A stretch of DNA of 25,462 nt from a virus. Taxonomy: Duplodnaviria > Heunggongvirae > Uroviricota > Caudoviricetes. Within the stretch, counting starts at the first letter, position 1. Every line of letters starts with the position of its first letter. The position numbers are program-made. The stretch lies in the IMG/VR virus record IMGVR_UViG_2563366903_000022; one strand, given 5' to 3'. Shown one piece after another: positions 3,001 through 6,000 of this stretch.

Positions 3001-6000
3001 AAACACTGGTGTCGCGGAAGGTTGTGGCAGATGAAGTAAAAGCCGGGGTAAGTATCACGTCGCCTGTTATCCGGAGTGCTGTTATTCAGAACGGGAACTT
3101 TCAGGTTGATTCTCAGGGTAACCTGAATATTGGTGGCCTTTTTAGTGTTACGTCGCAGGGGCAACTGACAATTCGTTACTCTAATCAGAATGTTGGGCTG
3201 GTGATCCGCAATGATAAAATTGAAGTTTATGACCAGAACGGACGCCTGGCTGTTCGCATAGGCAGGTTAAGCTGAGCCGGAGGCTGACATTGGCAGAATA
3301 TGGTTTTGCAATATACAACAGAAACAATGTTAATGTTACGGGCGTGCTTACTCCCATATTTTTCCTGGACAGGTTTACGGCGGAGTCGGGATCAAAAACG
3401 TATACGAATAAACCAGAAGGGAAAACATTGCAGGCAGTCTGTTCATTATTTCCGTGGAATAATGTATTTAAGGACCGGAAAGTACCGAAGATAACCATTA
3501 ATGGCAATACGGTGACATGGTCGAATCTTGAGCAGGGGATGGGGTCATATATTTATACATTCTGGGGGTGAGTTGTATGTATGGTTTAAGCATTACGAAA
3601 CCAGATGGCAGCTTGTGGATAAGCCCGGGGTTTACGCCTCAGTGTCTGATCAATAAGGGAACTATTCCGGCGACTGAGAAGGCTTTTTTTAAAACGTCAA
3701 TCCCGTCAGGAAAAAGTTGTTTTTTCTTTATCAGAACAGAGAAAAAGGCCGATGTCATGTACACACATGAACAGATTGATGGATATCATGCCTTAAGGCT
3801 TCATCAAATTGTCAGGGGAACGAATCCTGGTGTTACGACTGTTTATGCTTTTGCGAATATGGTTACTCAACCTTCTGAGTATGGTATTGCCATGTATAAC
3901 CCGTCGGGTGAGATGATTTACCATGGCGAAATGATGCTGCTTGACGCGAAGTTAATACCAGTTGATATCAAGTTTGAGAAGGATCTTGGATATCCATGCG
4001 CAATTATGCCTGCACTGGTTGGGTATTATAACTGGCAGCGTACACCTTATGACCGACCGATTTACACCACATCAACGGGGGCTACAGGAAATAAAATATA
4101 TTCCTGTGAGCATTATTCCGGTCGTGCAACATGGGATATTCGGAAGCCGTATATAGATAAAGTGTTGGTCATTAATTCATCAATGTATAACTGATATGCC
4201 TGTCAGTATGAATATTAAGTAATAAAACTAAATTCATCTTAGATAATACGGGGTTATTTTATTATAGGAAAAGTCTAAAAATGAAACATACCAGAATTAT
4301 TTTTGCGTGCACAACTTTTGTGATGAGTTTTGTAGCAGCCCCTGCCTGTGCAGCACAAGGTGACAGTACAGTTTCTTTCGAATACGCTCATCTTCAGCTC
4401 TCTGGACTGAACAATTTTGTTAAGGATTTAAGTCTTTATAATCTTGATACTTTTAACCGTTTTACAAACAGACACTACTTCAATTCAGGCGAATATGCAG
4501 ATGCTTCTGTCCGGGGGCATGATGGCAAAGGCAAATCTCCTCAGGGGATGAGCATCAGGTATCGTTATGAGATAACGGATGAGATTGGTGTTATAACATC
4601 TTTTACATGGGCGCGTTCTATGACTAATGCGCAGGCATTTATTGATATTAACCCAGGAGATGAATCCAGAGAGGTTAAAAATCCGGCAGCTTCAGCGAGA
4701 ACTGATATCAGGGCTAATTACTGGAGCCTGTTAGCGGGTCCTTCGTGGCGGTTTAACGAATACCTCAGTGTGTATGCAATGGCTGGTATGGGCGTAGCTA
4801 AAGTTACCGCTGACCTGAAAATTAAGGACAACATTAACAGTACCGGTGGATTTTCTGAAAGCAACAGTACGAAAAAAACAGCACTTGCATGGGCTGCTGG
4901 TGCACAATTTAACCTGAATGAAAGTGTTGCTATGGATGTCGCGTATGAAAGCTCCGGATCTGGTGACTGGCGCACGAGCGGGGTTGTTGTAGGTATTGGC
5001 CTGAAATTCTGATCTGTATCCGACAACATGTCATAACCCGCTGTGATGGCGGGTTTTTTGTTGCCCGTGCAGGGCAAAAATCGTAGATTATGCGCGGGTG
5101 CCTTTCGGCTGATGGCTGGAAGGTGAACCTGAAGGCCTGATGTGGAAAGGCCCCGAGTCAACTTTAATGTTAACCCGAGGCCCTGACCGTACAACCTTCA
5201 CAAGTAGTAGGTTAGCGCCTCTCCACTCAGGAGACAAGCGTTATGTCGCAAAAATCGCTCATCACCGTCACAATTTGTATGACGGTAATCTTCACCATCT
5301 GGATGTTACACGGCTCGTTGTGTGAGTTCCGGCTGAATTTGTGGGGAGCGGAGTTTGCGGCGTTCTTACAGTGTAAGCAGTAGGAAAACCGCGACGGGGA
5401 CGAAAGTCCCCGTCAACTGGTTGCTGAGGTTCAGCCGATATGGCACCCGTTTCAGGTGAGAGAATGGACGACAGAATTCTCCGGTATATGCAGCGTGTTG
5501 TGAGAAATTCCCGCAACCCTGAATTTATGAATGAAGTTAAAGACGCCTGCCTTAAAAAGCAGGCGTTTTGCTTTGAAGCGCCGGATGGTTTTCTGGTGCT
5601 GCGTTCTGTGCTCAGTGACGATGGTATCCCTTATGTTCTGGTGTTACTGGGCGTGTGTACGGGGAGTAAGAGTGTTGAGCGTTATCTGCCGGAGGTGAAG
5701 ACATTAACCCGCCTGGCTGGCGGACGCTGGGCCGAATTTCATACGGCAAGACGAGGATTTATCCGGCTGGGAAAACGTCTGGGCTTTGAGCGAATGCCGG
5801 ATGATGAGGATGGCTTCATGGTGTTCAGGATAGCAGTCTGACTGCCACTGTATTCATCATCGAGCGTAAACCCACATTGCAATTCACATTCTGACCCTGC
5901 TCCGGCAGGGTTTTTTGTTATCTGAGGAGCCATTATGGGCGGAAGTAAAGGTGGTGGTGATACCAAAGTAAAACCAACAGCAGCGCAAATAGCACAGGAA

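What the first reader, a model, noticed from the sequence alone, without database searches (positions are those of the whole stretch)
5140..5414. Unannotated hok/mok-like type I toxin locus downstream of lom
The 46-aa ORF at 5243-5383 has the Hok-family hallmarks (single TM helix, SLCEFR, EFAAFL). It has an overlapping upstream ORF in a different frame (mok-like, 5140-5325) and a perfect 8-bp GC stem-loop right after the stop (5393-5414), consistent with the structured 3' end of hok mRNAs. An antisense Sok-like RNA would be expected on the minus strand around 5100-5250 but cannot be confirmed by eye. This could act as an addiction or abortive-infection module of the prophage.
Basis: partly seen in the sequence, partly recalled or inferred. 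Interest (0 to 1): 0.6.

Follow-up and report, generated by a model that had tools for sequence, protein, structure and literature searches.

The report
Second Hok toxin cassette beside lom
This is a real but already catalogued Hok-family "toxin plus antisense RNA" cassette that sits just after the lom gene of Shiga-toxin-type prophages; it is a second copy, distinct from the studied hokW-sokW.

Summary
The ORF at 5243-5383 encodes a 46-aa Hok/Gef toxin (Pfam PF01848, 33 bits against a cut-off of 22). It lies in a 353-nt hok-type mRNA (5096-5448) whose two ends pair with each other (tac/fbi). Homology among relatives stops exactly at those ends.

A Sok-like antisense gene is predicted on the minus strand, about 5201 to 5145. 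Its -10 hexamer, TAACCT, is identical to that of sokW and sits at the same position.

The locus is not new. RefSeq annotates the identical sequence as "Hok/Gef family protein". A 2026 preprint lists this exact peptide (72_1589) among 45 homologs it cloned and tested, and does not name it among the three non-toxic ones.

It is not hokW. Phages 933W and VT2-Sakai (Sp5) carry both loci, and their original records leave this one unannotated.

The "mok-like" ORF (5140-5325) is not conserved. It overlaps hok in only 6 of 50 unique relatives.

A hypervariable patch (5184-5205) coincides with the predicted Sok recognition tail.

The minor points of interest are the missing conserved mok, the variable patch, and an overlooked second hok in Sp5.

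The parts
5035..5062 (+). lom terminator (stem-loop plus T-run) that insulates the cassette from upstream transcription
   Evidence: Terminator-like site AACCCGCTGTGATGGCGGGTT followed by TTTTTTGTT. It lies directly after the lom stop codon at 5012.
5061..5089 (+). Predicted hok promoter: -35 TTGCCC (5061-5066), 17-nt spacer, -10 TAGATT (5084-5089), with +1 at G5096
   Evidence: Same layout as hokW: TAGAAT, 6 nt, then GGGTGC. The TTGCC and TAGATT elements are kept in relatives whose upstream context differs. The promoter is inferred and was not flagged by the consensus scan, because it matches only 8 of 12 positions.
5096..5448 (+). hok-type mRNA unit (353 nt)
   Evidence: Homology among 23 non-redundant relatives from lambdoid and P2-like prophages ends exactly at GGCACCC (5442-5448). 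It begins at the promoter and the GGGTGCC motif. MFE is -145.3 kcal/mol, z = -5.06.
5096..5112 (+). tac-like 5' element (GGGUGCCUUUCGGCUGA)
   Evidence: It pairs with the 3' end in the MFE structure of the full-length RNA. It pairs with 5145-5154 in the 3'-truncated RNA and in the RNAalifold consensus. It aligns to position 1 of Rfam RF01794.
5140..5325 (+).
   Evidence: The ORF is present here. ATG5140 is conserved in 48 of 50 relatives, but the ORF overlaps hok in only 6 of 50. The ATG lies within the tac/ucb stem sequence.
5145..5154 (+). ucb-like box (GAAAGGCCCC), the alternative pairing partner of the 5' end
   Evidence: Pairs 1-3/57-59 and 5-11/50-56 appear in the truncated-RNA MFE. The same pairs appear in the consensus of 23 sequences, where 21-23 of 23 sequences keep each pair.
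5145..5201 (-). Predicted Sok-like antisense RNA (about 57 nt): a variable 5' tail, then the hairpin GGGCCUCGGGUUAAC...GUUGACUCGGGGCC, then UUUCC
   Evidence: Mapped by homology to the sokW feature annotated in 933W. The base of the hairpin is conserved in 17 distinct sequences. It contains G.U pairs that would be C.A mismatches on the sense strand. The antisense fold has z = -5.3. No transcript data were available.
5177..5221 (+). Predicted antisense-target hairpin (GAGGC ... GCCUC) in the activated mRNA
   Evidence: It forms in the truncated-RNA MFE and in the consensus structure. It corresponds to the target hairpin of the Rfam model.
5184..5205 (.). Hypervariable patch, covering the Sok 5' recognition tail and the target-hairpin arm and loop
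   Evidence: Among 23 unique sequences that encode the identical Hok, mean pairwise difference is 0.27 here. It is 0.07 at hok third codon positions and 0.008 in the 3' UTR. About four main alleles exist, and they differ by indels.
5209..5237 (-). Predicted sok promoter: -35 TTGTCT (5237 to 5232), 17-nt spacer, -10 TAACCT (5214 to 5209), predicted start at G (5201)
   Evidence: The -10 hexamer is identical to that of sokW, and the -10-to-start distance of 7 nt is the same. The primer used for the sokW 'pro-less' mutant alters that hexamer. AGGTTAGCGCC is invariant and TTG is kept across relatives, with a 17-18 nt spacer.
5221..5233 (+). hok Shine-Dalgarno GGAG (5230-5233) paired with CUCC (5221-5224)
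   Evidence: The small hairpin appears in both the full-length and the truncated MFE structures. The sequence can be read directly.
5243..5383 (+). hok toxin gene (46 aa)
   Evidence: Pfam HOK_GEF, 33.2 bits against a cut-off of 22. The ORF is intact in all 50 unique relatives. Variation by codon position is 3rd > 1st > 2nd: 8.5, 5.8, 2.8. The family-conserved residues C12, T14, L26, C27, E28 and E37 are present. The identical peptide is 72_1589 in the preprint's toxicity panel.
5393..5414 (+). Conserved 3' hairpin (9 bp, GAAA loop) just after the hok stop codon
   Evidence: Seen. Two pairs covary. Equivalent hairpins follow the stop codons of hokW and R1 hok (sequence quoted).
5430..5448 (+). 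fbi-like fold-back element (UCAGCCGAUAUGGCACCC)
   Evidence: It pairs with 5096-5112. Across 23 sequences, 92% of cells are paired, against at most 48% when the partner is slid by 1-3 columns. Three pairs show changes on both sides. Sequence conservation stops at 5448.

Best explanation
The locus is a self-contained hok/sok-type (type I) toxin-antitoxin cassette, carried as a 'moron' between lom and the next late-region gene of a 933W-like (Sepvirinae) prophage.

Shown here:
- It encodes a Hok/Gef-family 46-aa membrane peptide.
- That gene lies in a highly structured, roughly 353-nt mRNA (5096-5448).
- The first 17 nt of the mRNA pair with its last 19 nt.
- When the 3' end is removed in silico, the 5' end pairs instead with an internal box (5145-5154), and a hairpin at 5177-5221 forms.

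Inferred from the hok/sok paradigm of plasmid R1 and from hokW-sokW:
- The full-length, end-paired mRNA is stable and translationally inert.
- Slow 3' trimming removes the fold-back element and refolds the RNA into a form that can be translated and can bind Sok.
- A short-lived antisense RNA of about 57 nt is made from the minus-strand promoter TTGTCT-17-TAACCT. Its variable 5' tail pairs with the target hairpin, which blocks expression and triggers decay of the duplex.
- When Sok synthesis stops, Hok is made, inserts into the inner membrane and kills or lyses the cell. Sok synthesis could stop on prophage loss, on host transcription shut-off by another phage, or on prophage induction.

Coupling through a conserved mok reading frame is not supported for this subfamily. 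In this particular copy the 5140-5325 ORF could serve that role.
For: - Toxin: Pfam HOK_GEF above threshold. All family-conserved residues are present. The ORF is intact and shows a purifying-selection pattern by codon position.
- Annotation and literature: RefSeq annotates it as Hok/Gef. The identical peptide was cloned for toxicity testing, and the text names only three other constructs as non-toxic.
- mRNA leader: homologous to the Rfam hok leader at E = 2.5e-6. The same model scores 113.5 bits on hokW.
- End pairing: present in the MFE structure. It is conserved in 92% of cells with compensatory changes.
- Alternative tac/ucb stem: found in the consensus and in the truncated fold.
- Cassette boundaries: homology ends exactly at the mRNA ends, even between lambdoid and P2-like prophage contexts.
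- Sok promoter: same hexamer and position as sokW, and the sokW promoter was mutated experimentally.
- Antisense hairpin: it contains strand-specific G.U pairs.
- Hypervariable patch: it falls exactly on the predicted recognition region.
Against: - No transcript data were available, so the Sok RNA, its ends and the mRNA ends are all predictions.
- The Rfam score of 35.6 bits is below the curated threshold of 59.
- The predicted sok -10 (TAACCT) and the hok promoter are weak consensus matches. The promoter scan did not flag either.
- There is no conserved mok frame, so it is unclear how Sok binding, at least 29 nt upstream of the hok SD, would control translation.
- No conserved terminator follows the fold-back element, so how the 3' end is formed is unknown.
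- Covariation support is modest because the relatives are close (22-38 of 500 shuffles reach the observed values).
- Chromosomal hok loci are reported not to mediate post-segregational killing (preprint introduction).
Confidence: 0.82

Rival explanations
1. The cassette is an inert or decaying hok remnant. It would resemble several chromosomal hok loci: the sequence is recognisable, but the locus is no longer expressed or regulated.
For: - The Rfam leader score is below the gathering score.
- There is no conserved mok.
- Some copies are visibly damaged. L027 has its 5' end replaced, and L063 has a mutated tac (GGACACC) that breaks the end pairing.
- Chromosomal hok loci are reported as unable to mediate post-segregational killing.
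Against: - The 46-47-aa ORF is intact in all 50 unique relatives, and no second-codon-position changes occur among the 23 closest.
- The promoter elements, tac, ucb, fbi and the hairpins are conserved, with compensatory changes.
- The identical peptide belongs to a toxicity panel in which only three other constructs were non-toxic.
- The cassette is present in 1551 of 5426 complete E. coli genomes.
Confidence: 0.07
2. The toxin gene is real but works without an antisense RNA. Expression would be gated only by mRNA folding (end pairing and SD sequestration) or by phage late transcription reading through from lom, so the peptide would act as a holin-like lysis helper.
For: - There is no conserved mok through which Sok could act.
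- The predicted sok promoter is a weak consensus match and was not flagged.
- The locus lies in the late region, in the same orientation as the tail genes and lom.
- HokW in the same phage type promotes lysis and phage release on induction.
Against: - The -10 hexamer is identical to, and positioned like, that of sokW, whose promoter was mutated experimentally.
- The antisense-strand hairpin contains G.U pairs and is followed by a U-run.
- The hypervariable patch is hard to explain without an RNA-RNA recognition function.
- A strong terminator separates lom from the cassette.
Confidence: 0.1
3. The locus is simply the known hokW-sokW system.
For: One RefSeq phage record labels the homologous CDS 'MokW-like host killing'.
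Against: - HokW is 51 aa and only 35-37% identical.
- hokW lies about 13 kb away, on the other strand, near attR in 933W and VT2-Sakai, and both of those phages also carry this locus.
- The hokW primer sequence is absent from the window.
- The segment that holds hokW in 933W is replaced in this window.
Confidence: 0.01

Closest known systems
Hok 60%-identity cluster 72 (peptide 72_1589) of Escalera-Maurer et al., bioRxiv 10.1101/2025.08.07.668861; RefSeq WP_000078907.1 'Hok/Gef family protein'
   Same: The 46-aa peptide is identical. The preprint cloned it under an arabinose promoter for toxicity testing. [quoted passage not shown]
   Different: That work analysed coding sequences only. It explicitly left Mok, Sok and mRNA structure aside. 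The RNA anatomy, the unconserved mok and the variable patch described here are not in the text I could read.
hokW-mokW-sokW of phage 933W / Sakai prophage 5 (Takada et al. 2021, PMC8621323)
   Same: - It occurs in the same phage type, and often in the same phage genome.
- The layout is the same: a TAGAAT/TAGATT -10, then 6 nt, then a GGGTGC start.
- The 3' end carries the same GCACCC fold-back motif.
- The sok -10 hexamer TAACCT is identical, with a 7-nt distance to the start.
- A hairpin follows the stop codon.
   Different: - The toxin is only 35-37% identical (46 aa against 51 aa).
- The Rfam leader score is 35.6 bits against 113.5.
- The genome position differs: after lom, rather than near attR on the opposite strand.
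- mokW is annotated as an in-frame upstream extension of hokW, but here the in-frame extension is closed by a TAG.
- This locus has no experimental data on its RNA or its biological role.
hok/mok/sok of plasmid R1 (Gerdes laboratory paradigm; recalled from the literature and from the summaries)
   Same: - A small membrane toxin and a cis-antisense RNA about 60 nt long.
- 5'-3' end pairing (tac/fbi) with an alternative tac/ucb stem after 3' trimming.
- A sok promoter that overlaps the hok SD and start region.
   Different: - The peptide is 28% identical.
- There is no conserved mok frame.
- There is no conserved terminator hairpin after the fold-back element.
- The locus is prophage-borne rather than plasmid-borne.
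HokA (E. coli chromosomal hok)
   Same: It is the best NCBIfam match, and an HokA-like peptide is 43% identical. Both cysteines are encoded directly (C27 and C44), so no Tyr-to-Cys RNA editing is needed, as stated for HokA.
   Different: The score is below the HokA equivalog cut-off (38 against 89 bits). The N-terminus differs and the peptide is shorter.

Membership tests
Hok/Gef toxin family (Pfam PF01848) | The protein matches the family HMM above the curated gathering score | tested here: met
   33.2 bits against a cut-off of 22, E = 4e-8, covering residues 8-44.
Hok/Gef toxin family (Pfam PF01848) | Small single-pass hydrophobic peptide with the conserved C-x-T, L-C-E and E residues | tested here: met
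   C12, T14, L26, C27, E28 and E37 are invariant in an alignment with Hok R1, HokW, an HokA-like peptide and a cluster-73 peptide. The list of conserved positions comes from the preprint.
Hok/Gef toxin family (Pfam PF01848) | Toxic when over-expressed | not testable with these tools
   The literature covers this. The identical peptide 72_1589 (plasmid LRP157) is in the tested set, and the text names only 19_179, 60_1482 and 69_1540 as non-toxic.
NCBIfam HokA equivalog (NF007290) | Score at or above the equivalog cut-off | tested here: not met
   38.4 bits against a cut-off of 89. The peptide is HokA-like but is not HokA.
hok/sok type I TA locus (hok mRNA architecture) | The 5' leader matches Rfam RF01794 (the 'sok' model, built on the hok-sense strand) | tested here: inconclusive
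   35.6 bits, E = 2.5e-6, full-length match to model positions 1-157. This is below the gathering score of 59. hokW scores 113.5 bits.
hok/sok type I TA locus (hok mRNA architecture) | Fold-back pairing of the mRNA 5' end (tac) with its 3' end (fbi) | tested here: met
   The pairing is in the MFE structure. Across 23 sequences it gives 15 pairs with 92% of cells paired, against 23-48% when slid, and 3 pairs change on both sides.
hok/sok type I TA locus (hok mRNA architecture) | An alternative 5' stem (tac/ucb) and a target hairpin form once the 3' end is removed | tested here: met
   Seen in the truncated-RNA MFE and the RNAalifold consensus. This is in silico evidence only.
hok/sok type I TA locus | A cis-encoded antisense Sok gene: a promoter overlapping the hok SD/start region, an RNA of about 60 nt, and a terminator hairpin | tested here: met
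   The sequence elements sit at positions homologous to the annotated sokW. The -10 TAACCT is identical, the -35 TTG is conserved, the spacer is 17-18 nt, and the hairpin plus U-run is conserved. Whether the transcript exists cannot be tested here.
hok/sok type I TA locus | A mok reading frame that starts in the Sok target region, overlaps hok and is conserved | tested here: inconclusive
   An overlapping ORF exists in this copy (5140-5325). It overlaps hok in only 6 of 50 unique relatives, and its ATG lies 3-4 nt outside the predicted Sok complement. There is no start codon at the canonical mok position. The feature is present by anatomy here but is not conserved in the subfamily.

The most novel reading that the evidence does not exclude
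Cluster-72 hok cassettes may be a mok-independent variant of hok/sok. In that reading, the 20-nt Sok recognition tail and its target diversify rapidly into mutually orthogonal alleles, so that several prophages in one cell each keep a private, non-cross-reacting addiction or lysis module. This overlooked second hok locus might also account for part of the lysis and viability behaviour attributed to Stx prophage Sp5, since the published hokW-sokW deletion strain still carries it.
Probability: 0.3. Interest if true: 0.45.

Novelty: already known. Interest (0 to 1): 0.2.

Why it matters
The gain is mostly accurate bookkeeping, because the toxin gene is already annotated in RefSeq and catalogued in a 2026 survey. 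Three practical points follow.

(1) 933W and Sp5/VT2-Sakai, the model Stx2 phages, carry two hok loci. The published hokW-sokW deletion leaves this one in place. Residual growth arrest and lysis in that mutant could involve this locus.

(2) Rfam-based annotation misses the RNA partner, because the leader scores below the gathering threshold.

(3) The lack of a conserved mok frame, together with the hypervariable recognition patch, makes this subfamily a convenient natural test of two questions: how much of the R1 paradigm is general, and whether Sok/target pairs diversify to avoid cross-talk.

Tried and rejected
- The Rfam gathering-threshold scan of the whole window found no hok/sok hit. Only the E-value scan showed the sub-threshold leader match.
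- The consensus promoter scan flagged neither predicted promoter.
With an alignment, genome contigs gave only 7 loci, several of them on contigs whose organism labels look like contamination: Xanthomonas, Planococcaceae and Vagococcus.
- PADLOC has no model hit for the peptide or for the downstream 133-aa ORF. Pfam and NCBIfam find nothing for the mok-like ORF or the 133-aa ORF.
- Literature searches for an sRNA or a hok locus next to lom in EHEC found nothing specific.
- I could not determine whether T1TAdb or the preprint's seed alignment already holds this mRNA. String searches in the supplements found only the CDS.
- I considered and rejected identity with hokW.
- I rejected an in-frame N-terminal extension of hok, in the style of the mokW annotation, because TAG at 5213-5215 closes it.
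- I rejected ATG5167 as a mok start because it is not conserved.
- I could not test whether different patch alleles co-reside in single genomes. The only pair of loci from one genome (L028 and L052) does carry different alleles, but that is a single anecdote.
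Full report
**Observation.** The window holds a 46-aa ORF at 5243-5383, a 61-aa ORF at 5140-5325 in another frame, and a perfect 9-bp GC-rich stem with a GAAA loop at 5393-5414. The 46-aa product matches Pfam HOK_GEF at 33.2 bits (gathering score 22, E = 4e-8). Its best NCBIfam match is HokA, at 38 bits, below that model's equivalog cut-off of 89. The upstream gene (4281-5012) is an Ail/Lom outer-membrane protein.

**What the unit is.** At gathering thresholds Rfam finds no hok/sok RNA anywhere in the window. An E-value scan, however, gives a full-length match of RF01794 to 5096-5254 on the + strand (35.6 bits, E = 2.5e-6, gathering score 59). 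RF01794 is named 'sok' but is built on the hok-sense leader, and it ends at the hok AUG. The same model scores 113.5 bits on hokW of phage 933W, on the hokW coding strand, and again 35.6 bits on the 933W copy of the present locus.

I collected relatives from IMG/VR, GTDB genomes and GenBank and aligned 23 non-redundant copies (A2). Sequence similarity starts at a TTGCC...TAGATT promoter-like element followed by GGGTGCC (5096). It stops exactly after GGCACCC (5448), even where the flanks differ completely. Close relatives lie between lom and a 133-aa ORF in 933W-like phages. The copies with 76%-identical Hok lie after gpD and ogr in P2-like prophages. The conserved cassette therefore equals a promoter plus a 353-nt RNA.

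**RNA anatomy.**
- Full-length fold. The 5096-5448 RNA folds at -145.3 kcal/mol (z = -5.06). In that fold, nt 2-7 and 10-17 pair with the last 19 nt.
- Conservation of the end pairing. On A2, these 15 pairs are formed in 92% of cells, against 23-48% when the partner is slid by 1-3 columns. Three pairs change on both sides. By eye, the Citrobacter and S. diarizonae copies show G-C to A-U and U-A to C-G exchanges.
- Alternative fold. RNAalifold on A2, and the MFE of a 3'-truncated RNA (5096-5420), pair the 5' end with GAAAGGCCCC (5145-5154) instead. They also form a hairpin at 5177-5221.
- Interpretation. These are the two alternative states (tac/fbi and tac/ucb) described for R1 hok mRNA. I recall that paradigm from the Gerdes laboratory literature; it is summarised.
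The 5393-5414 stem-loop is a conserved element of this RNA. Its two top pairs covary (GC:12/AU:11, and AU:12/CG:8/GC:2). hokW has an equivalent hairpin after its stop codon.

**Antisense partner.** In 933W the record annotates sokW at 58664-58734.
- The sokW reference. Its -10 is TAACCT, ending 7 nt before the annotated 5' end. The primer that Takada et al. used for their promoter-less sokW mutant changes that hexamer, and the mutant loses antitoxin activity.
- Promoter in this locus. The same hexamer lies at the homologous place on the minus strand (5214 to 5209). It is preceded by TTGTCT at a 17-nt spacing (5237 to 5232) and followed by ACTACTT and then G (5201). AGGTTAGCGCC is invariant in A2. 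The -35 reads TTGTCT, TTGCCT, TTGACT or TTGCTC in relatives, at 17-18 nt.
- Predicted RNA. It would run from about 5201 to about 5145. It has a 19-21-nt tail, then a hairpin whose 10-bp base is conserved in 17 distinct sequences, then UUUCC. The hairpin base contains G.U pairs that would be C.A mismatches on the sense strand. The antisense fold has z = -5.3.
- Limit. I had no transcript data, so the Sok-like RNA remains a prediction by homology.

**The mok question.** The ATG at 5140 is conserved in 48 of 50 unique relatives, but it is part of the tac/ucb stem sequence. The ORF that starts there reaches hok in only 6 of 50. In 42 it ends 27-100 nt upstream of the hok AUG, and in the 933W/Sp5 allele it is 8 codons long. 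In 12 of the 23 representatives the frame that overlaps hok has no ATG, GTG or TTG at all upstream of hok. The site that aligns with the mokW AUG has no start codon. An in-frame extension of hok, which is how mokW is annotated, is closed by TAG at 5213-5215. A conserved mok is therefore not supported. In this copy the ORF could still act like one, because its start lies 3-4 nt from the predicted Sok duplex.

**Variable patch.** I compared 23 unique sequences that encode the identical Hok. Mean pairwise difference is 0.27 at 5184-5205, indels included. It is 0.07 at hok third codon positions, 0.00 at second positions and 0.008 in the 3' UTR. The patch coincides with the predicted Sok 5' tail and with the target-hairpin arm and loop. 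About four alleles recur. This fits diversification, or allele shuffling, of the RNA-RNA recognition region. That reading is an inference.

**Is it known?** Yes.
- Annotation. A 100%-identical E. coli chromosome segment is annotated 'Hok/Gef family protein' WP_000078907.1. A RefSeq phage record calls the homolog 'MokW-like host killing'. All homologous proteins that carry a name are named Hok/Gef.
- Prevalence. 1551 of 5426 complete E. coli genomes have a match to the locus.
- Literature. The preprint 10.1101/2025.08.07.668861 lists the exact peptide as 72_1589, in a high-abundance cluster. It cloned the peptide (plasmid LRP157) for toxicity assays. The text says 42 of 45 constructs were toxic and names three others as non-toxic. 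That paper did not analyse Mok, Sok or mRNA structure.

**It is not hokW.** HokW is 51 aa and 35-37% identical. Phages 933W and VT2-Sakai (Sp5) carry both loci. In their original records the lom-adjacent one is unannotated. The present window lacks hokW altogether. The 933W segment that holds hokW is replaced here, and tblastn finds only one hok-like ORF in the window.

**Mechanism and role.** The most likely mechanism is the hok/sok one.
- An inert, end-paired mRNA is activated by 3' trimming.
- A short-lived antisense RNA then binds the refolded leader and silences it.
- Hok is produced when the antisense RNA runs out.

The structural states are supported in silico here. The kinetics, the processing and the killing step are inferred from R1 and hokW-sokW.

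The biological role is open. Candidates are prophage retention, exclusion of other phages, and, as shown for hokW-sokW, earlier lysis and higher phage release on induction. The published hokW-sokW deletion in Sp5 leaves this second locus intact.

**Verdict.** Its residual value lies in three points: the unconserved mok, the variable recognition patch, and the overlooked second hok locus in the model Stx2 phages.

Noticed in passing
window 17640-19716, compared with L003 (933W) 15746-18427: The window is collinear with 933W except for this segment. In 933W the segment carries L0135, L0136, hokW/mokW/sokW and L0139-L0141. Here it holds a 214-aa ORF with no Pfam match (17704-18348, minus strand) and a 408-aa PAPS-reductase/DUF3440 protein (18333-19559, minus strand). 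The 408-aa protein is IbrA-like by recollection and has weak PADLOC BrxP/DndC matches. This prophage therefore lacks hokW.
   Followed up: partly
window 20435-20523 (-): There is an Rfam sRNA-Xcc1 (RF02221) match at 71 bits, above its gathering score of 53. It lies immediately 5' of an AntA/AntB antirepressor ORF (19756-20394, minus strand). 933W has the same arrangement (L003 19137-19225, upstream of L0142).
   Followed up: no
window 17169-17615 (+): A 148-aa ORF carries a SocA/Panacea antitoxin domain (Pfam PF13274, 38.6 bits). It may be the antitoxin of another toxin-antitoxin pair in the prophage accessory region.
   Followed up: no
window 20940-25462: Homology to 933W ends at about 20940, which is attR in 933W. 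Beyond it lie a large serine recombinase (21044-22687, plus strand) and a Dit-like tail protein (22684-23493, minus strand). This suggests a second, adjacent mobile element or prophage.
   Followed up: no
window 5392-5415 (-): On the minus strand, the hok 3' hairpin is followed by CGGTTTTCCT and scores as an intrinsic terminator. On the plus strand no T-run follows it. It might stop antisense read-through from downstream genes.
   Followed up: no
L006 and L079 (Salmonella and IMG/VR loci): The same hok cassette (Hok 76% identical) sits at the end of P2-like prophages, after gpD and the Ogr zinc-finger gene. Homology begins and ends at the same mRNA boundaries, so the cassette moves between phage families as a discrete unit.
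   Followed up: partly
L004, L005, L007 (genome-contig hits): Hok loci that are identical or nearly identical to the enterobacterial ones appear on short contigs labelled Xanthomonas pisi, a Planococcaceae MAG and Vagococcus sp. These are most likely assembly contamination rather than true hosts.
   Followed up: no
window 5440-5841 (+): A 133-aa ORF with no Pfam, NCBIfam or PADLOC match follows the cassette. Its annotated ATG (5440) lies inside the hok fold-back element, and the ATG at 5465, preceded by GGTGAGAG, may be the real start. It accompanies the cassette only in 933W-like phages, not in P2-like ones.
   Followed up: partly
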